Source: a virus
IMG/VR virus record: IMGVR_UViG_3300037400_003528
Coordinates: 64,001 to 128,000 of that record
DNA: 64,000 nt
Reading direction: 5' to 3' (one strand)
The notes under the pieces are model-generated. The model was not told the origin of the DNA, did no database searches, and saw only the letters and a program-made list of their open reading frames with translations. The position numbers and the translations under genes are program-made. Shown piece after piece: positions 44,018 through 62,482 of this stretch. The stretch's first letter is position 1, and every line of letters begins with the position of its first letter.

Positions 44018-44962
44018 TTATTTATTACCTTTCGTCACATTTAAACCAACTTTATTTGATTGATACATCTAAATCCAAAATCGTTCTTTTTCATTTAATT
44101 TATCACGAGTACATTTCTAAAGAATTTCAAAAGTGAAATTCCATACACCATATTTCTGCATGTTATTATAAAGTTTATTTGTTACAGAAGCGTCTATACC
44201 AAGTCCGCATTTTATATGTTGTTTCCATCTATCTGCGATATTAACACTTTGCCCAATATAAATATCACCAGTTTGTTTATTAGTAATTTTATAAATTCCG
44301 CAGATTGTAGTAGATCCTAATACACGATTACACAAATCAGAAGTAGGTTTCATTATGAAAGCAGACCAAATAATTTTAGAAACAATAGAAGGATCATTTA
44401 GTTCATTTTTCCATTCTTGAAGATGTGTAATATCGTTAATTTGTTTTTCAGATATTTTTATACGATAAAATGCAATTTTATCTTCTTCCTCTTGCTATCT
44501 AAGACGTGCGGCGGTTGCAGCCTAATATACTGATTTAAGCTAGTTTAAATTTGATTGAACTTGATCTCGTTGTTGTTGAATATTAATTATCTATTGTTTT
44601 AATTGCTACTAATAATCTTTAGCTTCTTGGGCTTGTGAAATAGAAGCATTATGATAAATCTATTTTATTTTTTTTAATTGTTCTTGATAAGTCTGTTCTA
44701 TCTATTCTAATTTTTTGCCTCTATTTTCTCTTACCTATTCTAAAATAATATATTCTTTTTGTCTTTTATTTGTTAACTATAAAATTGTATTTTGTCTCTA
44801 AGTAATACGTTCATTTAAATCATTTAATTTTTTGTGTCTTCTCTATATCTCATTTATTATCTAATTATTATATTGCTATTTTTTTTTGCCGCTTATTAAA
44901 TACCAACAAAAACAACTAGACTAAATGATAATAATAATAATAAAAATAATAATCATACTCAT
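44018..44962 (-). CDS. GIY-YIG nuclease with an N-terminal hydrophobic segment and a Gln-rich coiled coil (314 aa, ~26 TAG)
   Basis: GIY-YIG core 'GIYKITNKQTGDIYIGQSVNIADRWKQH...YGVWNFTFEIL...ERFWI' lies at the C terminus. The 5' 600 nt have no TAA/TGA and ~24 TAG. The N terminus 'MSMIIIFIIIIII.SSCFCWYLISGKKK' is hydrophobic. Confidence 0.55.
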
Positions 44963-44976
44963 TTTTTAAAAAAGAA

Positions 44977-47564: not shown

Positions 47565-47761
47565 GCTTCATAATCCTCATAATTTCTATTAACAGATTCT
47601 CCGCAAAAAGGACAAATAGCTGTAATGTACAACTCATTTCTCCAATTATTACGAGTGTAAGAAGAGTTGTCTGCTTCAAAAATACAATCACATTTAGAAC
47701 AAATAAAACGTTTTGTTTCGTTCATTTTTTTTAAAGAACCATCTTTAATAATTTTAATCAT
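47561..47761 (-). CDS. small Zn-ribbon protein (66 aa)
   Basis: 'CSKCDC...CPFCG'. Confidence 0.45.
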   Translation of the reverse strand: MIKIIKDGSLKKMNETKRFICSKCDCIFEADNSSYTRNNWRNELYITAICPFCGESVNRNYEDYEA

Positions 47762-49797
47762 AGTACAATTACGGATTGAACCGTACTCCTTTCTATAATT
47801 TTTGTACCAGAACCATTTTTAGATTGTTCAGATAATTCAGATACAGTTGTACAAATAGAATTAGGTTTACCTACTACTAAAATAGAATCATCTTCTTTTA
47901 ATGGAGCAATAGAAGCTATATAATCATTTTTTTCAAGAGGAATAATATTAATACCTCTACCGTTTCTTTTTTGAATAATAAAGTTATTTATATCTACTTT
48001 TTTACTATTGCCATTACAAGTAAAAACTCCAAGATAACTAATATCTTTAGAAATATAAAAAGCAGAAACTACTTCATCATTTTCTTTTAAAGCAATTCCT
48101 TTTACACCGCTTGTAGCTTTCCCAATAGGTTTAATATCATCTGTTGGTACTTTTATAACATTACCAAATTTAGTAGCAAAAATAACATCTTCTTTATTCA
48201 TAAAAGTAACTGATAATAATTCATCCCCATCTTTAATTTTAATAGCTTGAATACCTGTTGACTTTTTTATAGAAATATATTCTTCTATTTTAGTCTTTTT
48301 TATTAAACCATTTTTAGTAAAGAAAACTACATAATTCGCAGGCTTTTCTCCAGAAATAGCTGTAGCTGTTTGAAACACTTCATTATCAGCAAAAGGAAGA
48401 AGTAAATGTAAATTAGTTCCTCTTGAAGCATTAGTTCCTTCAGGAATTTTATCTACCGCTAATTTATACATTTTACCTTTTGATGTAAATATCATTAAGT
48501 CATCAAGAGTATTAGTAGATATGGTCGTTTTGATTGCGGCATCCACAGTTTTTACACCTTTACCGTTTCTTTTTTGTATTCTAAAACTCTTTTTAGGAAT
48601 ACGTTTAATATCTCCGGTATGGGTAATAATAACTACGACATCTTCAGGAGTTATATCAATTTTTTCTTTTTCTTCTTTTACGTCGTCAATTTGAGTTAAC
48701 TCTGTACGACGTTTATCTCCATATTTATTAACCAAATCCGCCAAACGAACTTTTAACAAATCTATTTGTTCTTCTTTACTATTGATAAGGCTTTCCCATT
48801 TTTGAATATTATAAACTAATTCATTTCGCTCTTTTTCTAATTCTACACCTTCTAATTTTGCTAAACTTGAAAGTCGCATAGCAAGAATGGCTTTTGCTTG
48901 ATTCTCGGTAAAGCCCCATTTTTCAATAAGGGAGATTTTTGCTGTTGCTCCAGACTCACTTTGTTTGATAAGAGCAATGATTTCGTCAATATGAATAATG
49001 GCTCTAAGTAAACCATCAACAATTTCCTTTCTTAATTTAGCTTTTTCTAAATCAAATTGAGTTTCTTTAACGATACATTCGAGATTATGGTCTACATAGA
49101 TTTTTATAGCATCCCGCAAGTTTAATTCAGTAGGAGTTTTATCTACCAAAGCTACCTGATTATAACTAAATGAAGTTTGAAAATTAGTTTTTGCATAAAT
49201 TTGTTTTGCAATTGCATCAGGTGAAAAACCTTTTTGACATGTTACAACAATTCTAATTTCTTTAGAACTTTCATCATGTATATCATGAATACCTTTTATT
49301 TCTTCCTTGTCACAAATTTCACCAAGTTCTGTAATTAATCCTTCTATTGTAGTTCCATATGGAATTTCATAAAAGATAATTTTATTTTTATCTACTTTAT
49401 AACGTGCTCTAATTTTTACAGAACCATGTCCCGTTTCCATAATTTTAGGGATGTCATTTTTATTAATGATTAATCCCCCAGTAGGAAAGTCAGGACCAGG
49501 CAACATAGGAAGAGCACCATCCAAATAATTATATATGGCTTGACCAACATCATACAGGTTGTGAGGAGCCCAGTTACAGGCCATCGCAACACCAATACCA
49601 GTATTAGGATTACAAAGCAAATTAGGAAAGGTACAAGGGAGAGTAATAGGCTCTTTAAGACTTTCATCATAATTTGAGATAAAATCAACGTTATTTTTCT
49701 TAATTCCATTTAACATACCTTCTTCTGATATTTTACTAAGGCGGGCTTCGGTATAACGTGCGGCAGCAGGTCCATCACCTGTAATATTACCATTATT
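47758..49797 (-). CDS. type II DNA topoisomerase A subunit (GyrA/T4 gp52-like), exon 2
   Basis: Begins 'NNGNITGDGPAAARYTEARLSKI', the catalytic-Tyr region of GyrA. It continues as the supplied ORF 47758..49716. Confidence 0.75.
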   Translation of the reverse strand, partial: NNGNITGDGPAAARYTEARLSKISEEGMLNGIKKNNVDFISNYDESLKEPITLPCTFPNLLCNPNTGIGVAMACNWAPHNLYDVGQAIYNYLDGALPMLPGPDFPTGGLIINKNDIPKIMETGHGSVKIRARYKVDKNKIIFYEIPYGTTIEGLITELGEICDKEEIKGIHDIHDESSKEIRIVVTCQKGFSPDAIAKQIYAKTNFQTSFSYNQVALVDKTPTELNLRDAIKIYVDHNLECIVKETQFDLEKAKLRKEIVDGLLRAIIHIDEIIALIKQSESGATAKISLIEKWGFTENQAKAILAMRLSSLAKLEGVELEKERNELVYNIQKWESLINSKEEQIDLLKVRLADLVNKYGDKRRTELTQIDDVKEEKEKIDITPEDVVVIITHTGDIKRIPKKSFRIQKRNGKGVKTVDAAIKTTISTNTLDDLMIFTSKGKMYKLAVDKIPEGTNASRGTNLHLLLPFADNEVFQTATAISGEKPANYVVFFTKNGLIKKTKIEEYISIKKSTGIQAIKIKDGDELLSVTFMNKEDVIFATKFGNVIKVPTDDIKPIGKATSGVKGIALKENDEVVSAFYISKDISYLGVFTCNGNSKKVDINNFIIQKRNGRGINIIPLEKNDYIASIAPLKEDDSILVVGKPNSICTTVSELSEQSKNGSGTKIIERSTVQSVIVL

Positions 49798-50987
49798 CTA
49801 ATCGTTATTAACCATAGGCTTTTTGTCCTATGCTCTGGAGGTTTCCCTCATTTTCATCGAATAGTTAATTCTATTCCAGTATAGCATATCTTTTTAACAT
49901 AATAAACTCTGTTATTATACTACCCGTTAGCGCGGACTCTTGGAGATATTATATTCTTAAATTCGCATTTAAGGTTCAATCTCTATGCGTTGCGTTTGAC
50001 TATATTATTACATATAGCCTTCAATCTCTGATTAGGATGACTAAACCCTTCCAGTTTAATTCCGCGCTGATCATTCTAAATTAATTGGTAGTTTCATTTA
50101 GAACGGCATAATTTTTAACTAAGTCAAATTTTCTTTCAAGATATAATTGATTTTCATTCTCTAATATGTTATGGTAAAATTTTATTATTCCATCTTTATT
50201 AGAAATTCTTAATCTAAAAATAGAATTTATTTGATCTAATTCAATTGGATTAATTTTTATTGTTTTTTCAAGATATTCTTTAATAGATTCGCACAACTCT
50301 TTTGTTCCTGAAATACCTATTTCATGACTATTTTTAGAAAAATAACACCAACCATCCCCGTCGAAAATACCCCTAATAAAAGCATTTTGTAATTTTTCAT
50401 TGTTAAAATTATACATAGGCTCATGATTTAAAGAAATTTTATTTGGAATAATTCCATATTTTAATATTGCATTACACATTTCTCTACTTGAAATGGTTAA
50501 ATTAGCAATAGAATTTTGTTTTCCTTCTGTGAAACCAGAACCATTTTCAATTTTTATAGGAATATTACTTTTTAAACACTGATTGAATTTTTCAAGAATA
50601 GATTTATCATCAGCTTTTAGTCTAAATCGAATAGTTGTTCCAGTATTATTTCCATCTGCTAATAAAAAACCTAACCAGTATGCTTTTTCAGCAGTATCAA
50701 TTTTATTAAAGTATGTTCTATTATAAGAATATTTTTCTCTTTTTGATCGGGAAGGAATATTTAATGCTTTTAGTTTATTATAAAAGGTGCCTCGATCAAT
50801 ATTAAATTTTTTAGCTACATCTGTAGTTGATTCTTCTTCATTTTCTAAATAATACTAGAGAGCTTGTTTATAAGTTTCATTCATTTTAATCATATAAAAT
50901 ATCTCCTTTTTATTTTTGATATTTTATATAAAATTTTACCATAGAAATTTAATCAATTTTTACCTTGAATGTTAAAAATTTTTATTT
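49798..50987 (-). other. putative group I intron (~1.19 kb) splitting the topoisomerase A-subunit gene
   Basis: Exon 1 ends '...RYPLIDWHG' and exon 2 begins 'NNGNITGDG', reconstructing the GyrA motif 'YPLVDGQGNFGS.DGDGAAAMRYTE'. The 3' segment 49798-50080 is GC-richer with P7/P8-like pairings (agtata...tatact) and a terminal G. An endonuclease ORF is embedded. Confidence 0.5.
50081..50893 (-). CDS. intron-encoded LAGLIDADG homing endonuclease (270 aa, 1 TAG)
   Basis: Motifs 'WLGFLLADGN' and 'FIRGIFDGDGW' are present, with its own RBS 'aaaaggagat'. Confidence 0.8.
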
Positions 50988-51287
50988 ACCGTGCCAATCT
51001 ATAAGAGGGTAACGCATAACCCAAGGTTGAGAAAGACGAACCATTGCTCCATAGATTGAACTGTCTCCATGAGGGTGATATTTACCCATAACATCACCAA
51101 CAATTCTTGCCGCTTTAACGTGAGGCTTAGATGAAGTCCGCCCTTCTTCAAATGCTGACCAGAGAATACGTTTTGCAACAGGTTTAAGGCCAGATTTGGC
51201 ATCAGGAATTGCTCTGTCGGTATTAACAGCTACCGCATATTCTATAAAGTTTGTACTTAATTCTTTTGTTAAATCATTCTGTATCAT
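50988..51287 (-). CDS. type II DNA topoisomerase A subunit, exon 1 (100 aa)
   Basis: 'RAIPDAKSGLKPVAKRILW...GKYHPHGDSSIYGAMVRLSQPWVMRYPLIDWHG' matches the GyrA N terminus. Confidence 0.75.
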
Positions 51288-51522
51288 CTATTACCTCATA
51301 TTCTATGCTATCAATCCCACCATAATCTTCTACACTATAGTCATCTATAACTAAATCTAAATCATGAAGAATCTCTTCTTCGTAAACAAATTTTTTAGGA
51401 TTTTCTTGAAGTCTTTTAAACTCTTCTGCTGTTAATTCTAAAACACCCTCTTTATGTCCATAACGAAGATGTCCTACTACATATTCTAATGGAATATCGA
51501 ATTTTACTTTTTTATTCTGCAT
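51274..51522 (-). CDS. small acidic hypothetical protein (82 aa)
   Basis: Starts at an internal ATG with an RBS, overlapping the GIY-YIG gene end. Confidence 0.4.
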   Translation of the reverse strand: MQNKKVKFDIPLEYVVGHLRYGHKEGVLELTAEEFKRLQENPKKFVYEEEILHDLDLVIDDYSVEDYGGIDSIEYEVIDDTE

Positions 51523-52063
51523 TATAAGTAGCCTCCTTACCAATAAACTCCCATCGTAATGGCTCTCCTGTAATAGGATGTTTACCATTTGTTTTTAATC
51601 TTCCTTTTCCATTAGCAACTTGTCTAATGTGGTTTCGATCTCCTCCCTTGCACCATTCTGCAGCTCTACTGGCATTATCAAAAATTTGACCAGTATTTAT
51701 ACAACGTATTTTTTTACCTTTTCCATAATTAGGATGTTTTTCTCCAGATAAATTTTTAGAAATTTTTTCTTTTGTTTCTTCTGATAAGGCTCCTTGAGAA
51801 CTAGCATTTCTTATATTATAACCAAACTGTTTATTTTGAGTATTAAATAAATTTATATATTCTTGTTCTTTGAGGTTAGCTTCTTCTAAAGTTAAGTTAC
51901 TTTCTAAAATTTTAACTGAAAAGTTATCCCAACCATATTTTTGAATGGCCTAGTAAAAAGCAACACAATTTTTATACTTTTTACCTTCTTTACCTGACCT
52001 TTGGTACAAAGAAGAACAAGTTTGTCCAATATATTTTTTATGATTTATTTTATTTTCATACAT
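51512..52063 (-). CDS. free-standing GIY-YIG endonuclease (Seg/I-TevI-like), 183 aa, 1 TAG
   Basis: 'KKYIGQTCSSLYQRSGKEGKKYKNCVAFY.AIQKYGWDNFSVKILE' is a GIY-YIG core. Located between the topoisomerase subunit genes. Confidence 0.7.
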
Positions 52064-52096
52064 ATATATTTTATATATATTCATTAATTTTTCCCT

Positions 52097-54122: not shown

Positions 54123-54220
54123 AAAGAAAATAAATGACAAAAGTGCGTCTACATTTATATACATATATATCAACAGACAAAAATAAGTGTGTAGTAATAT
54201 TACTACACACTTATTTTTTA
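54123..54220 (+). ncRNA. candidate ~100-nt small RNA (promoter to strong terminator), no convincing RBS/ORF
   Basis: Bounded by the 54089-54116 promoter and an 18-bp perfect hairpin plus T6. Confidence 0.3.
54181..54220. terminator. strong bidirectional terminator (18-bp perfect stem aaataagtgtgtagtaat/attactacacacttattt)
   Basis: Palindrome flanked by an A-run and a T-run. It lies downstream of the endolysin on the minus strand. Confidence 0.8.
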
Positions 54221-54322
54221 TATTATTTCAACATATCTGAAATTAACAAATCCATAAATTTTATTATTAATTTTCACATAATACCAAGTAGTACCATTGC
54301 TTGCTTGAATACTATCACAAAT

Positions 54323-55687
54323 CTAAATAATTTTGTCTTTATAGATATAAGGAATACTTTTTAAAGGATTAAATTCAACCCCTGCCCAGCTTCTTACATA
54401 TAGTGCATTTGCTGTAACTTTAGCTTTAGCATAAGTATCTCGGGCGGGAGACACTTTACCTGTTCTTGTAAATTTAGTTTTAGATGTTGCAATTAATTTT
54501 TTATCAGTATTAACGGGTTTTTCGGGCATCACCTTCTCCGAAGATTGAGGTGCTGCCGCCGCATTCGCATATTTAGGTATAGCATATCCACGAATATTAC
54601 CATTAGCAACTTGTAATGTACGTCGCGCCACCACTCCGCCATTACCTGTATTTCCTTCTATTGTTATGATAATATTTCCCTCAACCTTTTCAATAATACC
54701 AATATGATCTGCAAAACCGTCATTTGGTTGAGTGCCGTCATCCCAATTATAGGTTATAATCCAGCCTGGTTGAGGAGTAACTGAACCATTCTATTCCCAA
54801 ATACCAGCTTTTTTAAACAATTGAATATGTCTCTAAACACCACATTCAGTTCCACCAATTAAATCGACGGCGTTATTCTTAATAAAAGCCGCAGAAAGAG
54901 TAGTATCACAATAGTCATCAGTATATTTAACTTTATAACCAACGGCAAGAGGTTTATGATTATTATAAATATCAATAATATCTCTATGTGTTTGTTTAGC
55001 CATACTTTTTCCAATCCATTCTGCCATTGTGTTAATTATATCTTGCGCAGAAGTACCTTTAGTCTAAACAGATTTTTCCTCTTTCTTTTCCTATTGCTCA
55101 TAGTAGAAATTCATATCTACATTACCTGAAATACCATTTACTTTACCTTTACTTGTATATTGATGATAAACGCAATCATAATGAGGTGTAGTATTATAAT
55201 CCGCTAACCATATAATATATTTTTTTATGGTTGCCGCATCATACCAATTTTTATAATAGTCTTGATTTAAATAAAAACCTACTTTATATCCTTTGCTTTT
55301 AATATAATCACAAAAAACATTGGTAAAATTAATGCAATCAGTTTTTGTTAACTTAACTTTTTTTTCTCTGGCATTATTAACCGTATCATATTCAAAATCG
55401 TAAAAAACAATTATGTCTTTTCCTAACCCTGCTTTCTAAATATTTTTTATACAACTTTTTGCTTCTTCTATTGCATCATTTTTATTTAAAGGATAAGCAA
55501 AATGATAAACACCATGAATATTTATATTAGCTTCTTTAAATTTTTTTACGTTGTTTAAAAAATATTTATCAATTTGTTTTCTATATCCCTAACGAATAAT
55601 AACAAAGTTTATACCATCTTTTTTTACTTTTTCGGCATTTATATTATTACCTTGATGCTAAGAAATATCAATTCCTTTTAAAGCCAT
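54323..55687 (-). CDS. endolysin: GH25 muramidase + CHAP-like peptidase + SH3b-like cell-wall binding (454 aa, several TAG)
   Basis: N terminus 'MALKGIDIS.HQGNNINAEKVKKDGINFVIIR.GYRKQ...GVYHFAYP' is GH25-like. The middle 'GWIITYNWDDGTQPNDGFADHIGIIEKVEGNIIITIEGN' is CHAP-like. The C terminus is SH3-like. RBS 'gaaaggagac' precedes the start. Confidence 0.75.
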
Positions 55688-55704: not shown

Positions 55705-55740
55705 TAAAAAAGCGGGAGATCACTCTCCCGCTTCTTTTTG
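55705..55740. terminator. GC-rich hairpin (agcgggaga/tctcccgct) overlapping the holin stop codon
   Basis: 9-bp stem with loop 'tcac', flanked by A/T runs. It sits between the holin and endolysin genes. Confidence 0.65.
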
Positions 55741-55956
55741 TTCTATCATATTTTCTGAAAGTTTAACTTCTGGAAGTCCTGCTAAACTAGTCATAATTGA
55801 AAGGATACCTGCTGTACAAGCTACCGATGCTACATAAGCCCAATCTACTTCTCTAAAAGCTGCTCCCACCGTAATCATAGAGGCAAAAGTTTGAGCAAAA
55901 GTTTTTAATGCTCTAATACCAGCCGCCTTAATCCATATTTTAGATTTTTCACTCAT
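55720..55956 (-). CDS. holin (78 aa, two predicted TM segments)
   Basis: The hydrophobic segments 'MITVGAAF' and 'VASVACTAGILSIMTSLAGL' are separated by a short linker. The gene is immediately upstream of the endolysin. Confidence 0.6.
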   Translation of the reverse strand: MSEKSKIWIKAAGIRALKTFAQTFASMITVGAAFREVDWAYVASVACTAGILSIMTSLAGLPEVKLSENMIEQKEAGE

Positions 55957-56002
55957 AGTAAAATTCCTCCTTTTTTATATATATACTTAAAAAAGATTTA
56001 TT

Positions 56003-56470
56003 TTACTTTTTATTATTTTGACCTTTCTTTTCTTTAATTTGAGTTAAAAGAAGTTTTCTATGTTCTAAATCTTTATCAATATTTTGGATTTGTTCTTTTA
56101 AAAATTTAATATTATTGGTATGATTTCTAATCATAAAATAGAATCTATTTTCAAGTAATCTTGTTATAGCAAAACAAGTATAATTATCTCCATTATAATT
56201 TTTTACAAAAGGTAAAATATCTTTCTTAACTTCTCTTTCTATTGTTTGGAGTATTAGTCTTTCTCGTTTTAATTCTTCTTTATAAAATTTTTTTGTTGCT
56301 TTCATTTCAGCAATAGATAATCCAGAAAGTTTACTTTGAACTTCTTTATCTTCAGGATGGACTTTTGCTACTCCCTTAAATATACCTCTTTTAGTTTTTA
56401 TTGTTACAATAGATACTCCTGTATTTGGGTTAAAATTAGAATTAAAAAGTTTTGTTTTTAATTGTCTCAT
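56003..56470 (-). CDS. hypothetical protein (155 aa), possibly a regulator
   Basis: Supplied ORF; basic and Lys-rich. Confidence 0.35.
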   Translation of the reverse strand: MRQLKTKLFNSNFNPNTGVSIVTIKTKRGIFKGVAKVHPEDKEVQSKLSGLSIAEMKATKKFYKEELKRERLILQTIEREVKKDILPFVKNYNGDNYTCFAITRLLENRFYFMIRNHTNNIKFLKEQIQNIDKDLEHRKLLLTQIKEKKGQNNKK

Positions 56471-56576
56471 TATTTTTTTTGCTCCTTATTTTTATAATAT
56501 AATTTTTAATAATATATAAACTCATTTCAACAAAAAGAGTTCCAAAAATTCCTACTAAAACTGGATTTACAATCAT
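56442..56576 (-). CDS. small hydrophobic peptide (44 aa)
   Basis: 'MIVNPVLVGIFGTLFVEMSLYIIKNYII...'. ATGA-coupled to the phosphoesterase stop. Confidence 0.3.
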   Translation of the reverse strand: MIVNPVLVGIFGTLFVEMSLYIIKNYIIKIRSKKNNETIKNKTF

Positions 56577-57115
56577 TCTTTTTTCTCCCTATATTTATTA
56601 ATATCTTCAATTATTTGTTCTATTGATACAGGATAACAATTATGAGCATCCATTGCTACATTATAAATACTATATTGTCCAAATTCAAATTTATTAGAAC
56701 TATGAGTATGTCCAGATAGATTCCAAAAGAAACGTTTTTCTTCAAAATTACCTACAAGAGTAGGATAATGAGAAAGATAAAACATTTTCTTTTTATTATA
56801 TTTATAGATTGAAGCAAAACCAAGATATGTCATACCATATTCTGTTTGATATTTATTAAGTTTGTTATTTGTATCATGATTACCCCAAATAACATTTTTT
56901 TCTCCATTTAATACTTTATAGACACGATTCCATTCTTTTTCATTTCCGCTCATACATAAATCGCCAAGAATATAAACAGTATCTTTTGGAGTAATAATAC
57001 TATTCCATCTTTTTAAGATTTCTGTATCATGTTCTTCTATTGAAGAAAAACCGCGCGGCTGCCAGAGAAAATTTTTATCGTGTCCAATATGGAGGTCTGC
57101 TGTAAAATAAATCAT
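56573..57115 (-). CDS. calcineurin-like metallophosphoesterase (180 aa), putative 3'-phosphatase of the RNA-repair cassette
   Basis: 'DLHIGHD', 'GDLCMSGNE' and 'GNHD' motifs. Confidence 0.7.
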   Translation of the reverse strand: MIYFTADLHIGHDKNFLWQPRGFSSIEEHDTEILKRWNSIITPKDTVYILGDLCMSGNEKEWNRVYKVLNGEKNVIWGNHDTNNKLNKYQTEYGMTYLGFASIYKYNKKKMFYLSHYPTLVGNFEEKRFFWNLSGHTHSSNKFEFGQYSIYNVAMDAHNCYPVSIEQIIEDINKYREKKE

Positions 57116-57118
57116 TTT

Positions 57119-57607
57119 TTAATTCCTTTTTAGTGGAACCAATTGATCGTTAACATAAGTAAAAATCATATCAAATGGTTCATTATAAGTAGGTGGTTTT
57201 AAATGTGTATACATATTATATATCTCGTTGGGCGGGACATAAGTTTTAGTTCCTTTTCTAAGGTCATTTCTTTCTAAGCATACTTCAATCGGAGTATTAA
57301 TATATATTGCAATAATATTAGTTTTATGACGATTAATATGGAGTTGATTAAGAAGTTTATAACGACTTTTTGGATTTAAATGGGTAGCATCCGCAATAAC
57401 ATCTTCCCCATTATTAATATGAAGATTTATTTCTTCAAGAAAAGTTTTATACACTTCTTTTTCTTTTGCGAAATAATTATCGTGTTCATTTAATAATGAA
57501 AATCTAATGACATCTCTTGATATATGAATTTTTTTAGGTTGAGCTTTTGCAAAAGTAGTTTTTCCAGACCCAGGAACTCCTATCATAATAAATAAATTAT
57601 TTTTCAT
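57119..57607 (-). CDS. P-loop polynucleotide 5'-kinase (Pnk kinase-domain-like), 162 aa
   Basis: Walker A 'GVPGSGKTTFA', a size typical of the T4 Pnk kinase domain, and adjacency to the phosphoesterase and RNA ligase. Confidence 0.6.
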   Translation of the reverse strand: MKNNLFIMIGVPGSGKTTFAKAQPKKIHISRDVIRFSLLNEHDNYFAKEKEVYKTFLEEINLHINNGEDVIADATHLNPKSRYKLLNQLHINRHKTNIIAIYINTPIEVCLERNDLRKGTKTYVPPNEIYNMYTHLKPPTYNEPFDMIFTYVNDQLVPLKRN

Positions 57608-57633
57608 TTCTTCTCCTTTATTATAACATAAAA

Positions 57634-57672
57634 TTTTATAAAAGGCAAAAAAGTTATAATAACCTTTTTGCC
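57634..57672 (-). terminator. hairpin + T-rich terminator between the RNA ligase and kinase genes
   Basis: Sequence 'ggcaaaaa...tttttgcc'. Confidence 0.5.
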
Positions 57673-57679
57673 TTTTATT

Positions 57680-58915
57680 TTAATTATGATATGTCATCAA
57701 AAATTCATTAGAAACAGCTTTAAAAGATTGAGTTCCATCTTCTGACCGAAATACAATACCTTCACGCATATCTTCGTCAATTTGAGATTTATCAGTAGCA
57801 TAATCAAGCAATTCTTCAACAGTATCAGGGAGAATGAATTTACTATTTACAATAGGGACACAAGGAATATTGTAATAATCTTCAAGCAGTTCTCTCATTT
57901 TAAGAGTATTAAATCTTCCTTTGTCAGAAGTAATAAGATTAAATGCCATAAAATCATGACCAGTTAGATGATAATCTCTTTTTTGTACTCCTGCTCCATA
58001 AGTTTCACCCTGGATAGTAATCCATTCTGCGGCCGGAAATAACGATAGCATTTCAATAAGAGCATGTTCAATATGATACTTTTCCGCCATTTCTGTATAA
58101 ATATTAGTTTCATAAAAACATGTTTTATCAGGCTTATCAAAGCAGACATTACGAGAACAAACATAAAATTCATTTTTATGAGGCCACTTTCCACGTTTGA
58201 TAGTAAAAGTAGTTGAAGAACCATCAATCTTTTCTGTTGCAATCCAAGGGTTCTTATCTTTAAGAATCCAAGGCATATTTTGGATTCTTTCTTCATCAGT
58301 TTTCTTTACCCAAGTGGGCCAGCCTGTTTTGTCTCGCTTTCTACCAAAGAAAATAAAAAGAAGTTTCTTACCCCAGTCGCGCTTCATAAGCCAGCGGAAA
58401 GGCTGCTTTGAAAACAATTTTCCATTACGCTGTGCCATTTTTTTATATTTATCTACAGAAGAGGTCTTACGTTCATTATCTTCTGCTACATAATAAGTTA
58501 CTCCAAGCTGTTTAGTAAGAAAACGAGAATCATTTCCAGCATTGTGTTCAACCCCATTAGAGTCATGAATAGAATAACCATAATTATGATTTTCAATAGT
58601 CCAATTAAGATTAGCAGCAGATATAAGTAAACCTTGACTTAATGATTTACACATCTTTTGAGTCTTTATACGATATTTCTTTTTAACAAGAAAAGTCATA
58701 TCAGTAAAAGGTTCTACTTCAGGAAGTTTTGAATCAATCTCAAAGTAAATAGCGGGGTCACCCACTTTAAATTCACCCTTACCGACAACGATAGTCCATC
58801 CGCCAACGTGCGCCAATTCAACTCTATCGTATCCTTCAATTGGAGTAATATCATCAATAGTTACGACATACGCAAGTTCTCTTTCGTTAGTTTTTGGATT
58901 AAGCAAAGTAGTCAT
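57680..58915 (-). CDS. RNA ligase (nucleotidyltransferase motif I KxDG), 411 aa
   Basis: 'WIATEKIDGSSTTFT' gives motif I. The remainder is covalent nucleotidyltransferase-like. Confidence 0.7.
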   Translation of the reverse strand: MTTLLNPKTNERELAYVVTIDDITPIEGYDRVELAHVGGWTIVVGKGEFKVGDPAIYFEIDSKLPEVEPFTDMTFLVKKKYRIKTQKMCKSLSQGLLISAANLNWTIENHNYGYSIHDSNGVEHNAGNDSRFLTKQLGVTYYVAEDNERKTSSVDKYKKMAQRNGKLFSKQPFRWLMKRDWGKKLLFIFFGRKRDKTGWPTWVKKTDEERIQNMPWILKDKNPWIATEKIDGSSTTFTIKRGKWPHKNEFYVCSRNVCFDKPDKTCFYETNIYTEMAEKYHIEHALIEMLSLFPAAEWITIQGETYGAGVQKRDYHLTGHDFMAFNLITSDKGRFNTLKMRELLEDYYNIPCVPIVNSKFILPDTVEELLDYATDKSQIDEDMREGIVFRSEDGTQSFKAVSNEFLMTYHN

Positions 58916-59069
58916 CTCCTTTCATATTTTCTTCAAAAATAATTCTTTTTATAAAAAATAGTTTTTCTTTATCATTTAAAAAATCTGCTTTTAGAATTTT
59001 TTTAATTTTATTTAATTGATATTCCATTTTGATATAAGTAGGGTCTTCATCAGGGTCAAACATTCCCAT
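58899..59069 (-). CDS. small hypothetical protein (~56 aa)
   Basis: Internal ATG with RBS 'ggaag'. Confidence 0.3.
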   Translation of the reverse strand: MGMFDPDEDPTYIKMEYQLNKIKKILKADFLNDKEKLFFIKRIIFEENMKGDDYFA

Positions 59070-59245
59070 TATTCTACTTCCTCCCAAGTGAAATCAATAC
59101 GATTAAAAATTATATCTACGGCTGCATCAAAAACAAGACGAGGAAGTTCTGCTTCTGATATATCTCCGTTAATTGTAACTATATCTACATCATCAGGAAC
59201 TCCCGCCCAAGGATAACCAATTCTAATTTTTATCTTTTTTTCCAT
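59069..59245 (-). CDS. small hypothetical protein (58 aa)
   Basis: TAATG coupling with the upstream gene. Confidence 0.35.
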   Translation of the reverse strand: MEKKIKIRIGYPWAGVPDDVDIVTINGDISEAELPRLVFDAAVDIIFNRIDFTWEEVE

Positions 59246-59508
59246 TAATCTTCTTCCTTTCCAAGGAAAATTATAAACTCTTCGAAATGTAAATTTAATA
59301 TTTCATCTTCAACATAAAAAATATCTTTTCCATATGTAGTATGATACCAATCTATAAAGATAGATAAAAGTTGACCCATTCGTAATTCAGGACATTTCAT
59401 ATGTAAAAATTTAAAATCGTCCCATAAACTCATAATTTCTATCATTCTTTTACGACAGTTTTCATCATTTTTATTATTAATAGCGTTAAGTCTTAAATTA
59501 TTTTTCAT
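59245..59508 (-). CDS. hypothetical protein (87 aa)
   Basis: Supplied ORF; first gene of the minus-strand module. Confidence 0.45.
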   Translation of the reverse strand: MKNNLRLNAINNKNDENCRKRMIEIMSLWDDFKFLHMKCPELRMGQLLSIFIDWYHTTYGKDIFYVEDEILNLHFEEFIIFLGKEED

Positions 59509-59547
59509 TTTTATTTTCTTCTTTCTTTTTTCTTTTTCATTATATAA

Positions 59548-59576
59548 ATTTTATCAAAATTTTTTAAAAAGGTCAA
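59548..59576 (-). promoter_or_regulatory. promoter TTGACC-17-TAAAAT (minus strand) with an A/T-tract spacer
   Basis: Minus-strand reading is 'ttgacctttttaaaaaattttgataaaat'. Confidence 0.5.
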
Positions 59577-59602
59577 ATATAAGAAAATGATTTTGTGTTC
59601 TT

Positions 59603-59632
59603 TTGAAAAAGAGTAAAAGAAATAAATATAAA
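59603..59632 (+). promoter_or_regulatory. candidate promoter TTGAAA-18-TATAAA (plus strand)
   Basis: A weaker match upstream of the palindrome and RBS. Confidence 0.35.
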
Positions 59633-59635
59633 GGA

Positions 59636-59655
59636 GTAGGAAATATATTTCCTAC
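59636..59655. promoter_or_regulatory. perfect 20-bp palindrome gtaggaaata|tatttcctac between the promoter and RBS (candidate operator)
   Basis: Exact dyad symmetry 16 nt upstream of ATG 59672. Confidence 0.5.
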
Positions 59656-59671
59656 AAAAAGGAGAGAAAAA

Positions 59672-62482
59672 ATGCCAGGAATAAGCAATAATTTATATCC
59701 ACCAATTTTTAAAAAATCTTATGTTCCTGCTTTTGTAGGTTCATGTGAAATATATTTTTCTATTTCTGCTTATAATAGTTAGAGTGATATAAATACACAA
59801 TGTATACAAGTTAGTGTTCAAAATCAAAAAACAAATCAATCTGTTTTAAATAAAAATAAATACCCAAGCGGAGTTATGATAACAACATTAAAAATTAATA
59901 ATGATATTAAAACAGAAAATAAATATTCTATTGTTATTTTAGGTAATGATATAGAAGGTGGATTTCAATATAATCAATATTATAAAGTACAAATACGTTT
60001 TACTGGATCTAATGTTCGTACACCGGTAATGACATCAAATTCTTATAAAATAGATCAATGGATAAATAATAATTTATCTAATTTTTCATAGTGGTCAACA
60101 GTAGTATTAATAAAAGCTATAAGTAAACCAGAAATAAAATTAAAGTATTTTGAATCAGATTCTATTGTTACTGTAACAACAAGTAATTTAACTGTATTAG
60201 GGACAGTAACTAATCATATAAAAGATTATGAACTTTTAAAAAGTTATAAGATTTTAATTTATAATACTTAGGATGTTTTATTAGAAGAAAGTGAAAATAT
60301 ATTATTTGATTCTTCTAATAAAATTGAATATAATTGTAGATACAATTTTGAATCGTAGCATTATTATAAATTGTGTGTACAAATATTAACTAAAAATTTA
60401 TATTTTATGTAGCAATTTTTTGATTTTTATGTAAGTTATTCTTTTTATGGAAATTTTGGCGGACAAATAGAAGCTACTATTAGTGAAAATATTGGATGTG
60501 CTATTATAACTATAAAAAATAATGAATTTTCTTAGTTAGGTACAAATATTGTAATTAGACGAACTTCTAATAAAGATAATTTTAAATATTGGGAAGATGT
60601 TTTTACAACATCAGTTAAACCTAATGTAATGTTAAATTTAGTATGGAGAGATTATACTATAGAAAGCGGAATATGGTATAAATATAGTGTAGTAACACGT
60701 AATAAGAATAATATTAGATCGAATCCAGTTTAGATTAAATATCCTATAATGGGAATTTTTGAAGATATATTTTTAACGACAAAAGATCAACAATTAAAAG
60801 TTCGTTTTGATCCTCAAATAAATAATTTTTCAACAGTGGTTTCAGAATCTTTAACTGAAACATTAGGCTCAAAATATCCTTTTATTAGAAGAAATGGTGC
60901 AGTAAATTATAGAACTTTTTCTTTAAGTGGAACAATAAGTTATTTTATGGACATAGGTCAAAATTTAATGCACGCTTCTTTAGAAGAAAATTATGGAGAC
61001 TATGCTTATTTATATAATGATTATAATCAAAAAAATAATATCAATATGTTTAAAGATATTACCCAGTAGAAAGTCTTTAGAGAAAAAGTATTAACTTTTT
61101 TATATGCTAATGATATAAAATTGTATAAATCTGCGACATAGGGTAATTTATTAGTTAAATTAATGAATATTAATTTAACCCCTAATAATAGTTTAGGTAG
61201 ACAAATTTATACTTTTAATTGTACTGTCTATGAAATTGATAATTTTAATTATTAGAATTGTATAAAATATGGTATTCAAGAATAGGGTGAATATGTAGAG
61301 CAAACCTCCATTACTGTAACTAAACATGGACAAATTTATATTCCACAAAGACAAATCTATGAAATGAAAACAATAGATAATGAGGAAAACAAGGTTTATC
61401 AAATAGACGAAAATCTTTTTTTTGGTACTCAAGATTTATTAACAACTAAAATTGCGGAAAAATATAAAACATTAGCGAGATATAATACTTCTATTAGTGT
61501 TCAAAATTTAACTTATTTAAAAATTTAGTTAACGAATGATCCATATCCTATAGGAATAGAAAGTGGGATTCCGCGAAGATTAGAAATAAGTACAAATAAT
61601 ACTTATTTAGGACATATCGTAATAATTAATGGATAGTATATTATTATTGGAAAAGATGGGATATATGAGTTATCAGGAGATGATATTAGTATTACTAGTT
61701 TATCTTTTGTTTACCCTAATGAACAGGGAATTATAGATTATGAGGTTTCATTAACAGAATCTATAAAGACAGAACAAGATTTTCTAAGAATTACTTCTCT
61801 TTTCAAAACAGGTCAATTATGGGGTACTTTTGCTCTGTAGAATAATTTAATTTATACATAGATAGCTAATAAATATAAATTTGAAGAAGCTAATTTAAAA
61901 TTTAGTCAAGAATTACAACGAATAAAGGGTTTATGTGTACAAGCGGAACCTGGTATGACTTTTTATATAAAATAGAATCAAGATAGTGATTATGAAAAAC
62001 ATGTATTAAATGAAACTGGCTTATTAGAATTTTATAATGATGATACTGATATAAAAGGATTATATTTTATTGGACCTAAATTAACAGAAGTCTCAGCAGA
62101 AGAGCTAAGACAAAGAGGATTAGGACCAAATGAATTTTATGATACAAATTAGGTTATTACAGTAACAGAAATAAATGCACCTCATAATAATTATGTTTAT
62201 CGTATTTCTCCAATGGGTAGAATAGATTCAGATTCTTTAGTAATAGGAGAAGAAGAAATAGATAATTTACCAGAAAATCCTTCTTTTTTATTATGGGATG
62301 TTATGAATACTGTTGGTGAAGATTTAAATTATAGTACGTTAGGACTTTTTTATAGTTCTTTTGGTAAATATATTTATTATCAAGGAACTTGGTATCCTTT
62401 TACAAATAATAATGAAGTAATTATTCCTAATGTAGAAGCTATTGTAGATTATTATTGTGAAATTTTAAGAAAGGAGTATTAA
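59672..62482 (+). CDS. large virion structural protein, hypothetical (936 aa, ~20 TAG)
   Basis: RBS 'aaaaaggagag' precedes the start. All lines 59672-62482 were read in triplets with only TAG interruptions. The frame links ORFs 59876.., 60749.. and 62213.. Confidence 0.65.

What the first reader, a model, noticed from the sequence alone, without database searches (positions are those of the whole stretch)
56573..58915. Three-gene RNA repair cassette: RNA ligase, P-loop 5'-kinase, calcineurin-type phosphoesterase
Consecutive minus-strand genes encode an RNA ligase (KIDGS motif), a kinase (Walker A 'GVPGSGKTTFA') and a calcineurin-like metallophosphoesterase ('DLHIGHD', 'GNHD'), all without TAG. 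Together they resemble the T4 Pnkp/Rnl1 tRNA-repair system that counters host anticodon nucleases. Here the phosphatase is of the calcineurin type, as in bacterial Pnkp, not T4's HAD type, and the three activities are separate ORFs.
Basis: partly seen in the sequence, partly recalled or inferred. Interest (0 to 1): 0.6.

Follow-up and report, generated by a model that had tools for sequence, protein, structure and literature searches.

The report
Phage RNA end-healing and sealing cassette

Summary
Window 56573-58915 (minus strand) holds three intact ORFs with the quoted motifs.

- **Ligase (411 aa):** Rnl5 family (DraRnl/NgrRnl), with every mappable catalytic residue conserved. It is not T4 Rnl1-like.
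- **Kinase (162 aa):** belongs to the CthPnk/T4 Pnk clade and has the P-loop and the Asp/Arg acceptor-site pair. Adenylate kinase matches about 16 orders of magnitude worse.
- **Phosphoesterase (180 aa):** a complete binuclear metallophosphoesterase of the Aquifex aq_1665 subfamily, whose function is unknown. It is not the lambda-phosphatase/CthPnkp subfamily.

The functional link rests on two comparative results:
- The order ligase→kinase→phosphoesterase holds in 59 of 73 informative viral contigs and 10 of 19 MAG contigs, down to 43% ligase identity. The kinase-to-phosphoesterase gap has a median of 46 nt.
- Five independent database proteins fuse this same kinase family to this same phosphoesterase subfamily.

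Cultured phages carry analogous sets built on Rnl1-type ligases (E. coli phage HMD-6; a trifunctional fusion in Staphylococcus Sepunavirus).

All three genes lack TAG (expected about 17), like the replication genes, so they can be translated before the code switch.

The best reading is an RNA end-healing and sealing module, probably acting against host RNA nucleases. The substrate is unproven. DNA repair and tRNA processing remain as rivals. I rate it a new variant of a known kind, of moderate interest.

The parts
57680..58915 (-). [quoted passage not shown] It has an N-terminal OB-like domain (residues 14-98), a clade-specific basic/hydrophobic insert of about 50 aa (residues about 150-198) and a nucleotidyltransferase domain (residues 199-408).
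   Evidence: Pfam PF21189 and PF09414. PDB best hit is Naegleria RNA ligase 5cot, 4e-31 with the single sequence and 2e-69 with the family profile, against 1e-7 for T4 Rnl2. Invariant residues K229/D231/G232/S234 (motif I), S254-R255-N256 (Ia), Q302-G303-E304 (III), E385-G386 (IV), F398-K399 (V), T206/D207/R210, R12 and D61 map onto NgrRnl Lys170, Asp172, Glu227, Glu312, Lys326, Thr145/Asp146/Arg149, Arg4 and Asp53. No in-frame TAG.
57620..57678 (-). Ligase-kinase intergenic region: a terminator-like hairpin (57678-57638, 19 pairs followed by a T-rich tail) overlapping a promoter-like site (TTGCCT-17-TATAAT with upstream TG, 57648-57620).
   Evidence: Consensus scan; sequence. This is a pattern match only. 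It suggests the ligase and the kinase-phosphoesterase pair may be separate or attenuated transcription units.
57119..57607 (-). Stand-alone 5'-OH polynucleotide kinase (Pnk) domain, 162 aa.
   Evidence: Pfam AAA_33 2e-18 and phrog_505 polynucleotide kinase 2.5e-22. Family profile against PDB: CthPnk 2.7e-19, Pnkp1 1.7e-16, T4 Pnk 4e-16, PSTK 6e-16, adenylate kinase 4e-3. Invariant G10, G15, K16, S30, D32, R35, D73, T75, R82, N114 and R117 correspond to CthPnk Lys21, Asp38, Arg41, Thr80 and Arg120.
56573..57115 (-). Small binuclear metallophosphoesterase of the aq_1665/phrog_547 subfamily, 180 aa. It is the inferred 2',3'-cyclic-phosphate/3'-phosphate end-healing partner of the kinase.
56003..56576 (-). 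Two downstream ORFs of unknown function, often conserved with the cassette: a 44-aa hydrophobic peptide (56442-56576) and a 155-aa protein (56003-56470). Whether they belong to the cassette is uncertain; they may instead belong to the adjacent lysis genes.
   Evidence: No Pfam, PHROG, NCBIfam or PADLOC hit. tblastn finds p155 at 27-56% identity downstream of the phosphoesterase in many relatives. The holin (55720-55956) and a GH25-CHAP endolysin follow.
58899..59576 (-). Upstream leader of the same transcription direction: a promoter-like site (59576-59539) and three small TAG-free ORFs of 87, 58 and 62 aa that precede the ligase.
   Evidence: u87 and u62 are conserved upstream of the ligase in close relatives. 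The only family hit is a weak DUF7167 match for u58.

Best explanation
The three genes encode a split RNA end-healing and end-sealing pathway.

Proposed mechanism, all steps inferred from family biochemistry:
1. The kinase transfers a phosphate from an NTP to a 5'-OH end.
2. The metallophosphoesterase opens and removes a 2',3'-cyclic or 3'-phosphate, leaving a 3'-OH.
3. The Rnl5 ligase adenylylates itself on Lys229 and seals the resulting 3'-OH/5'-PO4 break. It does so preferentially where the two ends are held together in a duplex or stem, because characterised Rnl5 enzymes are nick sealers that need RNA on the 3'-OH side.

The genes contain no recoded TAG, so host ribosomes can translate them before the phage's code switch. 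The most likely job is to reverse cuts that host defence ribonucleases make in tRNA, rRNA or other structured RNA during infection.

Shown here: the family identities, intact active sites, the conserved gene order, the kinase-phosphoesterase fusions and the TAG-free status. Inferred: the enzymatic activities, RNA rather than DNA as the substrate, and the anti-defence role.
For: - **Enzyme identities and intact catalytic residues:**
- **Gene order:** ligase→kinase→phosphoesterase is kept in 59 of 73 informative IMG/VR loci with ligase identity 57-92% and kinase and phosphoesterase identity only 33-64% and 34-94%. It is also kept in 10 of 19 MAG contigs, down to 43% ligase identity.
- **Tight pairing:** the kinase-to-phosphoesterase gap has a median of 46 nt and is under 150 nt in 50 of 59 loci.
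- **Rosetta-stone fusions:** five representatives, each under 50% identical to the others, join an AAA_33 kinase that is 41-48% identical to this one to this phosphoesterase subfamily.
- **Same activity set in cultured phages:** HMD-6 has an Rnl1-type ligase, Pnk, a phosphoesterase 28% identical to ours, a cRec protein and tRNAs. Sepunavirus gp102 is a kinase-Metallophos-Rnl1 fusion.
- **Cyclic phosphodiesterase determinant:** the GNH histidine, reported as a determinant of 2',3'-cyclic phosphodiesterase activity in this superfamily, is invariant as H80.
- **Ligase requirement:** Rnl5 enzymes need 3'-OH RNA and a 5'-PO4 (PMC4408790; PMC5397189), which are exactly the ends the two healing enzymes would make.
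- **TAG-free like the replication genes:**
- **tRNA neighbourhood:** tRNA arrays abut the ligase in several relatives.
- **Precedent:** calcineurin-like phosphatases are already recognised as occasional healing enzymes in phage RNA repair (PMC7824862).
Against: - No activity was measured.
- The aq_1665 phosphoesterase subfamily has no known substrate. It is very widespread in phages without any ligase or kinase nearby, with matches in 1982 phage records; Kayvirus GH15 is an example.
- The cassette is not obligatory. Eleven loci have the ligase alone. Three have ligase plus phosphoesterase with the kinase replaced by unrelated small ORFs.
- A related phage has the fused kinase-phosphoesterase next to gyrase and NAD-ligase genes with no RNA ligase within 6 kb.
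- The only physiological data for an Rnl5 enzyme (DraRnl) point to recovery from ionising radiation, meaning genome reassembly, and not to RNA repair.
- A terminator-like hairpin followed by a promoter-like site separates the ligase from the kinase.
- Rnl5 is feeble on single-stranded RNA, so classic anticodon-loop breaks may be poor substrates.
- The host and its nucleases are unknown.
Confidence: 0.6

Rival explanations
1. DNA repair or replication-associated end processing. The kinase-phosphoesterase pair cleans 5'-OH/3'-phosphate DNA ends for the phage NAD-dependent DNA ligase, as mammalian PNKP does. The Rnl5 ligase seals nicks whose 3' side is ribonucleotide, such as embedded ribonucleotides or primer remnants.
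For: - The cassette sits at the end of the TAG-free replication block of gyrB, gyrA-like, LigA, Pol III alpha and a helicase.
- In a related phage the fused kinase-phosphoesterase directly precedes gyrB-gyrA-LigA with no RNA ligase nearby.
- The DraRnl knockout is radiation-sensitive and delayed in genome reassembly, and the authors leave open DNA versus RNA repair for Rnl5 and Rnl2.
- Rnl5 accepts DNA in the 5'-PO4 strand and the template strand.
- CthPnk and T4 Pnk also act on DNA ends (established knowledge).
Against: - Rnl5 strictly needs RNA at the 3'-OH end.
- The same kinase and phosphoesterase families are found fused or adjacent to Rnl1-type RNA ligases, next to cRec and tRNA genes, in cultured phages.
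- The ligase sits within tRNA arrays in several relatives.
- The matches to PdeM and MPE are far below family thresholds.
Confidence: 0.15
2. Processing of the phage's own RNAs rather than damage repair. The module would mature or recycle phage tRNAs, including the TAG suppressor needed for the code switch. One example would be removing the 2',3'-cyclic phosphate left on tRNA 3' ends by flanking HDV-like 'theta' ribozymes, then phosphorylating or re-joining the 5'-OH products.
For: - Kienbeck et al. 2024 report 'RNA ligase, DRB0094 family' in 54.5% of theta-ribozyme-containing phage genomes, a 140-fold enrichment, and leave its role unexplained (PMC10879173).
- This phage is TAG-recoded.
- tRNA arrays lie beside the ligase in some relatives.
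Against: - The window has no tRNA and no Rfam family above threshold.
- No HDV-like Rfam hit was found in the five tRNA-bearing relatives.
- A structural theta-ribozyme scan, with a working positive control, found none in the window or in any locus held at that point (L001-L097).
- Most tRNAs near the ligase in relatives already encode CCA, whereas only 4.5% of theta-associated tRNAs do.
- The published enrichment is not corrected for phylogeny.
- tRNA maturation has no evident need for a ligase.
Confidence: 0.12
3. Adjacency without a shared pathway. The phosphoesterase would act on something else, such as nucleotide second messengers, Ap4A or phosphoproteins. The P-loop kinase would phosphorylate a small molecule or another RNA such as a tRNA (PSTK-like). 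The ligase would work alone.
For: - The phosphoesterase subfamily is common in phages lacking the other two genes.
- The best NCBIfam hit of the kinase is PSTK (2e-14), slightly better than bacterial Pnkp (7e-12).
- The ligase is stand-alone in Pseudomonas and Sinorhizobium phages.
- There is a terminator-like hairpin between the ligase and the kinase.
Against: - Five independent kinase-phosphoesterase fusion proteins exist.
- The kinase-phosphoesterase gap is very tight across sequences only 33-45% identical.
- The gene order persists down to 43% ligase identity.
- The same trio occurs fused in one polypeptide in Sepunavirus.
- The Pnk-specific Asp/Arg acceptor-site residues are invariant.
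- No PADLOC hit was found.
Confidence: 0.08

Closest known systems
Bacteriophage T4 Pnkp + Rnl1 tRNA repair (counter to the PrrC anticodon nuclease)
   Same: It uses the same three chemical steps: 5' kinase, 2',3'/3' phosphatase and ATP-dependent ligase. It is phage-encoded. The kinase belongs to the same Pnk clade (T4 Pnk 4e-16 with the family profile).
   Different: - T4 fuses the kinase to a HAD (DxDxT) phosphatase; here the phosphatase is a separate metallophosphoesterase.
- The T4 ligase is Rnl1 (PF09511), tailored to anticodon-loop breaks. Here it is Rnl5 (PF09414 plus an N-terminal OB domain), a nick sealer that is feeble on single strands.
Bacterial Pnkp-Hen1 (Clostridium thermocellum) and Pnkp1-Rnl-Hen1 (Capnocytophaga gingivalis) RNA repair systems
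   Same: They pair a kinase with a binuclear metallophosphoesterase and a ligase. The kinase here is closest to CthPnk (2.7e-19) and Pnkp1 (1.7e-16). Pnkp1-Rnl also places the ligase on a separate polypeptide.
   Different: - The phosphatase there is lambda-phosphatase-like, with the GDxxDR arginine. Here it is the aq_1665 subfamily without that Arg.
- The ligase there is Rnl4 or another type, not Rnl5.
- None of the flanking ORFs tested (56003-59508) has a methyltransferase or other family hit that would suggest Hen1.
- Here all three activities are on separate ORFs.
Cultured-phage cassettes: Escherichia phage HMD-6 (RNA ligase / Pnk / phosphoesterase / cRec / SIR2) and Staphylococcus Sepunavirus gp102 (kinase-Metallophos-ligase fusion)
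   Same: HMD-6 has a stand-alone Pnk immediately followed by a stand-alone phosphoesterase of the same subfamily (28% identity, 2e-13), with an RNA ligase next door. Sepunavirus joins the same three domain types in one 778-aa protein.
   Different: Both use Rnl1-type ligases (PF09511). The HMD-6 kinase is only distantly similar to ours, matching over the P-loop only. Neither phage is TAG-recoded.
Rnl5 ligases DraRnl (Deinococcus radiodurans) and NgrRnl (Naegleria gruberi)
   Same: The ligase has the same domain organisation and the same conserved active-site residues.
   Different: [quoted passage not shown] The insert is shared by the gut/rumen phage clade but absent from NgrRnl and from the Pseudomonas and Sinorhizobium phage enzymes.
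- It scores below the TIGR02306 equivalog cutoff (112.6 against 151 bits).
- Here it has end-healing genes as neighbours. DraRnl is co-transcribed with a DEDDh-like exonuclease gene.
Aquifex aeolicus aq_1665 (PDB 1xm7) / PHROG 547 'phosphoesterase'
   Same: It is the closest structure and the closest family for the 180-aa protein.
   Different: aq_1665 has no assigned function. The link to a polynucleotide kinase, by adjacency and by fusion, is what this locus and its relatives add.

Membership tests
Rnl5 (DraRnl/NgrRnl) nick-sealing RNA ligases | Signature N-terminal OB-like domain followed by a nucleotidyltransferase domain, with no C-terminal appendage | tested here: met
   PF21189 covers residues 14-98 and PF09414 covers 223-401 of 411. 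Both NgrRnl domains align. The protein ends 12 residues after the motif V lysine (K399 of 411).
Rnl5 (DraRnl/NgrRnl) nick-sealing RNA ligases | Nucleotidyltransferase motifs I, Ia, III, IV and V with the lysine nucleophile, plus the ATP/metal contacts defined in NgrRnl (Arg4, Asp53, Arg149, Asp172, Glu227, Glu312, Lys326) | tested here: met
   K229, D231, SRN254-256, E304, E385, K399, R210, R12 and D61 are invariant in 13 diverse sequences. They were mapped through the alignment to the residues listed in PMC7261155. Lys121 could not be mapped because of the insert.
Rnl5 (DraRnl/NgrRnl) nick-sealing RNA ligases | Score above the curated equivalog cutoff of NCBIfam TIGR02306 (RNA_lig_DRB0094) | tested here: not met
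   The score is 112.6 bits (E 1.8e-32) against a cutoff of 151.15. TIGR02306 is still by far the best model; Rnl2 scores 25 bits. The shortfall fits the clade-specific insert and overall divergence.
Rnl5 (DraRnl/NgrRnl) nick-sealing RNA ligases | Seals 3'-OH/5'-PO4 nicks only when the 3'-OH strand is RNA | not testable with these tools
   This needs purified protein and nicked duplex substrates.
5'-OH polynucleotide kinase (T4 Pnk / CthPnk clade) | P-loop GxxGxGK[ST], the general-base Asp with its Arg partner in the acceptor site, and a lid arginine | tested here: met
   G10, G15, K16, D32, R35, T75 and R117 are invariant across 17 sequences, including the fused forms. They correspond to CthPnk Lys21, Asp38, Arg41, Thr80 and Arg120 (alignment).
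5'-OH polynucleotide kinase (T4 Pnk / CthPnk clade) | Closer to polynucleotide kinases than to nucleotide or small-molecule kinases | tested here: met
   Family profile against PDB: CthPnk 2.7e-19, Pnkp1 1.7e-16, T4 Pnk 4e-16, adenylate kinase 4e-3. Caveat: the tRNA kinase PSTK is nearly as close (6e-16; best NCBIfam hit).
5'-OH polynucleotide kinase (T4 Pnk / CthPnk clade) | Phosphorylates 5'-OH RNA or DNA ends | not testable with these tools
   This needs a biochemical assay.
Lambda-phosphatase-like 2',3' phosphatase of bacterial Pnkp | Binuclear metal ligands (DxH, GD, GNH, H, GH) | tested here: met
   D7, H9, D52, N79, H80, H116, H136 and H138 are invariant. This feature is shared by the whole superfamily.
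Lambda-phosphatase-like 2',3' phosphatase of bacterial Pnkp | Phosphate-binding arginine of the GDxxDR motif (CthPnkp Arg237, lambda phosphatase Arg53) | tested here: not met
   The sequence is LGDLCMSGNE, with no Arg or Lys at or near that position in any of 19 family members. The residue roles come from PMC3675462.
Lambda-phosphatase-like 2',3' phosphatase of bacterial Pnkp | Closest sequence or structure relatives are lambda phosphatase or the CthPnkp phosphatase | tested here: not met
Bacterial Pnkp-Hen1 system | Trifunctional kinase-phosphatase-ligase polypeptide partnered with a Hen1 2'-O-methyltransferase | tested here: not met
   There are three separate ORFs. None of the neighbouring ORFs 56003-59508 matches any methyltransferase family.
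T4 Pnkp-Rnl1 system | Kinase fused to a HAD/DxDxT 3'-phosphatase, and an Rnl1-type ligase (PF09511) | tested here: not met
   The kinase is a 162-aa single domain. No HAD domain was found in the locus. The ligase is PF09414/Rnl5 and has no PF09511 hit.
aq_1665 / PHROG 547 small metallophosphoesterases | Full-length sequence and fold match | tested here: met

The most novel reading that the evidence does not exclude
In TAG-recoded gut and rumen phages, the Rnl5 ligase with its kinase and phosphoesterase partners is not mainly an anti-defence repair kit. It would instead be part of the phage's own RNA-processing machinery for the code switch. [quoted passage not shown] That would explain the unexplained 140-fold enrichment of DRB0094-family ligases in theta-ribozyme phages and give the Rnl5 family its first defined physiological substrate.
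Probability: 0.1. Interest if true: 0.75.

Novelty: new variant of a known kind. Interest (0 to 1): 0.4.

Why it matters
Phage RNA repair against host ribonucleases is an established idea, and cultured phages already carry cassettes of ligase, kinase and phosphoesterase. The locus is therefore not a new kind of system.

It adds three things:
- **A partner for Rnl5.** The physiological role of the Rnl5 family is described as uncharted (PMC5397189). Here it is tied by conserved synteny to 5' and 3' end-healing enzymes across a large clade of uncultured phages. This argues that at least phage Rnl5 enzymes work on breaks with 5'-OH and phosphorylated 3' ends.
- **A function to test for an orphan subfamily.** The aq_1665/PHROG 547 metallophosphoesterase subfamily matched 1982 of 50,697 phage records in tblastn and has no assigned function. 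Adjacency to, and fusion with, a polynucleotide kinase suggests a concrete activity to test, namely polynucleotide 3' end healing.
- **Expression timing.** The cassette belongs to the TAG-free gene set of a code-15 phage. It can act before the code switch, when a host attack on tRNAs, or processing of the phage's own suppressor tRNA, would matter most.

Tried and rejected
- **Nucleotide search against phage records:** blastn of the 3.6-kb region found nothing. The closest cultured-phage proteins are no more than 30-37% identical.
- **Cultured phages with the ligase:** I looked for the trio in Pseudomonas Y1-MI, phiPMW and Sinorhizobium phiM7. The ligase is stand-alone there. The phiM7 metallophosphoesterase 2 kb upstream is a different subfamily (E 0.46).
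- **Other cultured-phage contexts:** Kayvirus GH15, Clostridium phage Amboise and Phass-1 each have only one of the genes.
- **Defence-system reading:** no meaningful PADLOC hit.
- **Theta/HDV-like ribozyme link:**
  - Rfam at gathering thresholds found nothing in the window.
  - Rfam at E<=0.1 on five tRNA-bearing relatives found only tRNAs and one group I intron.
  - My own structural scan, built from the published ribozyme layout, recovered the positive control. It found no active-site-intact hit in the window or in any locus held at that point (L001-L097).
  - The link is therefore unsupported by the sequence in hand. It is not excluded, because only 64 kb of the genome is visible.
- **tRNAs:** none in the window.
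- **Literature gaps:** the Burroughs and Aravind 2016 RNA-repair survey is not in the held library. I could not check whether this exact trio is listed there.
- **'kinase = adenylate or thymidylate kinase':** rejected on profile scores and catalytic residues.
- **'split or TAG-interrupted kinase' in the lineage lacking it:** rejected. The two small ORFs there are unrelated proteins.


Full report
**1. What is there**

The window is a low-GC (about 28%) piece of an uncultured tailed-phage genome. It reads TAG as a sense codon. ORFs of at least 150 codons cover 27 kb under the standard code and 56 kb when TAG is sense, and the plus-strand structural genes are full of in-frame TAG.

- 57680-58915, 411 aa, containing EKIDGSS
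- 57119-57607, 162 aa, containing GVPGSGKTTFA
- 56573-57115, 180 aa, containing DLHIGHD and GNHD

The gaps are 72 nt and 3 nt. Stop codons are TAA, TAA and TGA, and each ORF has a purine-rich ribosome-binding site upstream. None contains TAG. At the TAG density of the plus-strand genes (22.7 per 1000 codons), about 17 would be expected in 753 codons (P about 4e-8).

The whole stretch 55720-59508 is TAG-free, as are the Pol III alpha, SF1 helicase and NAD-ligase genes; gyrB carries a single in-frame TAG. The adjacent GH25-CHAP endolysin has 8 TAGs and the tail or baseplate gene starting at 59591 has 17.

**2. The ligase**

- Pfam finds the PHA02142 OB-fold domain (residues 14-98) and RNA_ligase PF09414 (223-401).
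- The best solved relative is Naegleria gruberi RNA ligase, the structural prototype of the Rnl5 family. It scores 4e-31 with the single sequence and 2e-69 with a 13-sequence profile. T4 Rnl2 reaches only 1e-7, and no Rnl1 structure appears.
- In an alignment spanning gut/rumen phage homologues and the Pseudomonas and Sinorhizobium phage enzymes, these are invariant: K229-x-D231-G232-x-S234 (motif I), S254-R255-N256 (Ia), Q302-G303-E304 (III), E385-G386 (IV), F398-K399 (V), K205-T206-D207-x-x-R210, and N-domain residues R12 and D61.
- Through the pairwise alignment these map onto NgrRnl Lys170, Asp172, Glu227, Glu312, Lys326, Thr145/Asp146/Arg149, Arg4 and Asp53. Those are the nucleophile and the ATP and metal contacts defined crystallographically (PMC7261155).
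- The motif set is therefore complete.

Two caveats apply. The protein scores below the curated TIGR02306 cutoff (112.6 against 151 bits). It also carries a basic/hydrophobic insert of about 50 residues (FRWLMKRxWGKKLLFxFFGRKRDKK, about 150-198) that is shared by its metagenomic relatives but absent from NgrRnl and the proteobacterial phage enzymes.

Characterised Rnl5 enzymes seal 3'-OH/5'-PO4 nicks in duplexes. They require RNA on the 3'-OH side and are feeble on single strands (PMC4408790; PMC5397189). Their physiological function is described as uncharted.

**3. The kinase**

- Pfam gives AAA_33 (2e-18) and PHROG 505 gives 'polynucleotide kinase' (2.5e-22).
- A 17-sequence family profile ranks PDB chains as follows: C. 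thermocellum Pnk 2.7e-19, C. gingivalis Pnkp1 1.7e-16, T4 Pnk 4e-16, PSTK 6e-16, mammalian PNKP 3e-8, adenylate kinase 4e-3.
- Invariant residues are the P-loop (G10, G15, K16), S30-x-D32-x-x-R35, D73-x-T75, R82, and N114/R117.
- D32 and R35 align with CthPnk Asp38 (general base) and Arg41, and R117 with the lid Arg120 (alignment; roles from PMC3902929).

The one near rival by sequence is the tRNA kinase PSTK. The fusions described below argue for Pnk.

**4. The phosphoesterase**

- Pfam gives Metallophos (8e-7) and PHROG 547 gives 'phosphoesterase' (1e-44).
- Nineteen homologues share invariant D7, H9, D52, N79, H80, H116, H136, H138, D156 and H158, which is a full binuclear metal site.
- The phosphate-binding arginine of the GDxxDR motif (CthPnkp Arg237, lambda Arg53; PMC3675462) is absent (GDLCMSG).
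- The histidine of GNH is present (H80). The same paper cites it as a determinant of 2',3'-cyclic phosphodiesterase activity.

So 'calcineurin type, as in bacterial Pnkp' is true for the superfamily only.

**5. Are the three genes a unit?**

*Synteny.* A scan of IMG/VR with the ligase returned 80 loci at 57-92% identity. Of the 73 with enough downstream sequence:
- 59 have ligase→kinase→phosphoesterase in that order
- 3 have ligase plus phosphoesterase only
- 11 have the ligase alone

The kinase-to-phosphoesterase gap has a median of 46 nt and is under 150 nt in 50 of 59 loci. The ligase-to-kinase gap has a median of 416 nt and often holds an extra small ORF. Order is kept even where the kinase and phosphoesterase are only 33-45% identical to those of the window. 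In GTDB genome contigs, all of them MAG-binned phage-like contigs, 10 of 19 show the same order, down to 43% ligase identity.

*Fusions.* A profile of the phosphoesterase searched against 1.84 billion representatives found 18,922 relatives. Among the top 150, five proteins of 341-348 aa place this domain directly after an AAA_33 kinase domain. That domain is 41-48% identical to the window kinase. The window pair is therefore a split version of a bifunctional kinase-phosphoesterase.

*Cultured phages.* The same activity set recurs in isolated phages:
- Escherichia phage HMD-6 has an Rnl1-type ligase, a 136-aa Pnk immediately followed by a 184-aa phosphoesterase 28% identical to ours (2e-13), a cRec protein, SIR2 and tRNAs.
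- Staphylococcus Sepunavirus gp102 is a single 778-aa AAA_33-Metallophos-Rnl1 protein.
- The jumbo-phage survey of Iyer et al. already notes that calcineurin-like and HD phosphatases occasionally replace the usual HAD enzyme in phage RNA repair (PMC7824862).

**6. Limits of the linkage**

- The cassette is modular. In one rumen lineage two unrelated small ORFs replace the kinase.
- Several lineages have only the ligase.
- A related phage has the fused kinase-phosphoesterase just upstream of gyrB-gyrA-LigA with no RNA ligase within 6 kb.
- The phosphoesterase subfamily is present in 1982 phage records, usually with no kinase or ligase beside it.
- In the window, a 19-pair terminator-like hairpin and an extended-minus-10 promoter-like site lie between the ligase and the kinase. 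The ligase may therefore be transcribed separately from the tightly coupled pair.

**7. Most likely mechanism**

The kinase makes a 5'-phosphate. The phosphoesterase converts a 2',3'-cyclic or 3'-phosphate to a 3'-OH. Rnl5 then seals the break, which is RNA on its 3'-OH side, most efficiently where the ends are held in a helix. The genes are TAG-free, so the enzymes can be made by unmodified host ribosomes early in infection.

I consider repair of host-inflicted RNA cuts the most likely purpose (confidence 0.6 for the healing-and-sealing pathway on RNA). The target is less certain. A nick sealer suits breaks in stems of tRNA or rRNA, or tRNA halves still held together, better than a free anticodon-loop gap.

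Three rivals remain:
- **DNA-end processing and repair (0.15).** It is supported by the replication-gene neighbourhood, the DraRnl radiation phenotype and weak similarity of the phosphoesterase to the nucleases PdeM and MPE.
- **Processing of the phage's own tRNAs (0.12).**
- **Mere adjacency (0.08).**

**8. The tRNA-processing idea**

Kienbeck et al. (PMC10879173) found that 54.5% of phage genomes with tRNA-flanking HDV-like theta ribozymes encode a 'DRB0094 family' RNA ligase, a 140-fold enrichment. They offered only a speculative role. HDV-like cleavage leaves a 2',3'-cyclic phosphate on the tRNA and a 5'-OH downstream (established knowledge). These are exactly the ends this kinase-phosphoesterase pair should heal.

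I tested what I could:
- The window has no tRNA and no Rfam family.
- Relatives with tRNA arrays next to the ligase show no HDV-like Rfam hit.
- Most of their tRNAs encode CCA.
- A structural scan built from the published ribozyme layout, with the positive control recovered, found nothing in the window or in any locus held at that point (L001-L097).

The idea is therefore unsupported here. It stays open because most of the genome is unseen.

**9. Novelty**

The kind of system, a phage-encoded set of RNA end-healing and sealing enzymes, is known, and cultured phages have the same three-ORF or fused layouts. What differs is the ligase family (Rnl5) and the use of the uncharacterised aq_1665-type phosphoesterase as the apparent 3'-healing enzyme, within a large clade of TAG-recoded gut and rumen phages.

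In the searchable literature I found no report linking Rnl5 to polynucleotide kinase or metallophosphoesterase genes in phages.

Verdict: new variant of a known kind, interest 0.4.

Noticed in passing
window 1-64000 (e.g. 7446-16214, 59591-62482, 54218-55687): The phage uses TAG as a sense codon (code-15-like). ORF coverage doubles when TAG is read through. Structural genes carry 12-36 TAG per 1000 codons, including a 2923-codon ORF with 92 TAGs. No suppressor tRNA, or any other tRNA, lies in this 64-kb window.
   Followed up: partly
window 55720-55956 (holin) and 54218-55687 (endolysin): The r1t-type holin gene is TAG-free, but the adjacent GH25-CHAP endolysin has 8 in-frame TAGs. Endolysin synthesis, but not holin synthesis, would therefore depend on the code switch. 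The lysis genes sit inside the minus-strand early/replication block, directly downstream of the cassette.
   Followed up: partly
window 57119-57607 compared with L007-L017 and L040: Among the closest relatives the kinase is much more diverged than its two flanking genes, for example ligase 90%, kinase 61% and phosphoesterase 93% in L007. This suggests allele replacement or faster evolution of the kinase.
   Followed up: no
L088-L091 7474-7999 (also L050, L052, L057): In one rumen lineage the kinase slot between ligase and phosphoesterase is occupied by two unrelated small ORFs of 73 and 100 aa. The second has CxxC...CxxC zinc-ribbon-like motifs.
   Followed up: partly
window 57680-58915, protein residues about 150-198: The ligase carries a clade-specific basic/hydrophobic insert of about 50 aa (FRWLMKRxWGKKLLFxFFGRKRDKK) between the OB domain and the nucleotidyltransferase domain. 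It is absent from NgrRnl and from the Pseudomonas and Sinorhizobium phage Rnl5 enzymes.
   Followed up: no
window 47758-52096: The gyrA-like ORF (47758-49893) appears to lack its N-terminal part. A LAGLIDADG gene (50081-50923) and a GIY-YIG/NUMOD3 gene (51512-52096) separate it from gyrB. This suggests a topoisomerase gene interrupted by homing-endonuclease-bearing elements. A further GIY-YIG-like ORF with 17 TAGs lies at 44018-44965.
   Followed up: no
L064 11643-13207; L081 9092-10182; L065 928-1237: tRNA arrays next to the ligase in some relatives have long spacers of 90-220 nt that contain tRNA-like T-arm and acceptor fragments which ARAGORN does not call. Rfam calls two oversized 'tRNAs' of 106 and 133 nt. 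One tRNA is predicted to have a 4-base anticodon. L065 holds a group I intron.
   Followed up: no
P0167 (502 aa) and P0231 (406 aa): Other architectures of the same phosphoesterase subfamily exist. One is a fusion to a TatD-family nuclease/hydrolase domain (P0167). Another has an unannotated N-terminal extension of about 190 aa (P0231).
   Followed up: partly
L070 9599-10354: A higher-GC phage lineage with the ligase alone encodes a lambda-phosphatase-like metallophosphoesterase (GDCVDRG, GNHE) 2.4 kb downstream of the ligase. No kinase was detected.
   Followed up: no
L087 (Logan SRR12668996); L088-L091 (ENA STEW19 assemblies); L098-L116: The window's exact ligase recurs on a 14.8-kb contig of a public run. 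Relatives come from ENA and Logan metagenome assemblies and from MAG-binned contigs (two titled sheep rumen or ruminal, several from 'Lapin' samples) binned with Bacilli, Clostridia, Erysipelotrichaceae, Lachnospiraceae and Ruminococcus. Together with the r1t holin and the GH25-CHAP lysin, this points to a Bacillota host.
   Followed up: partly
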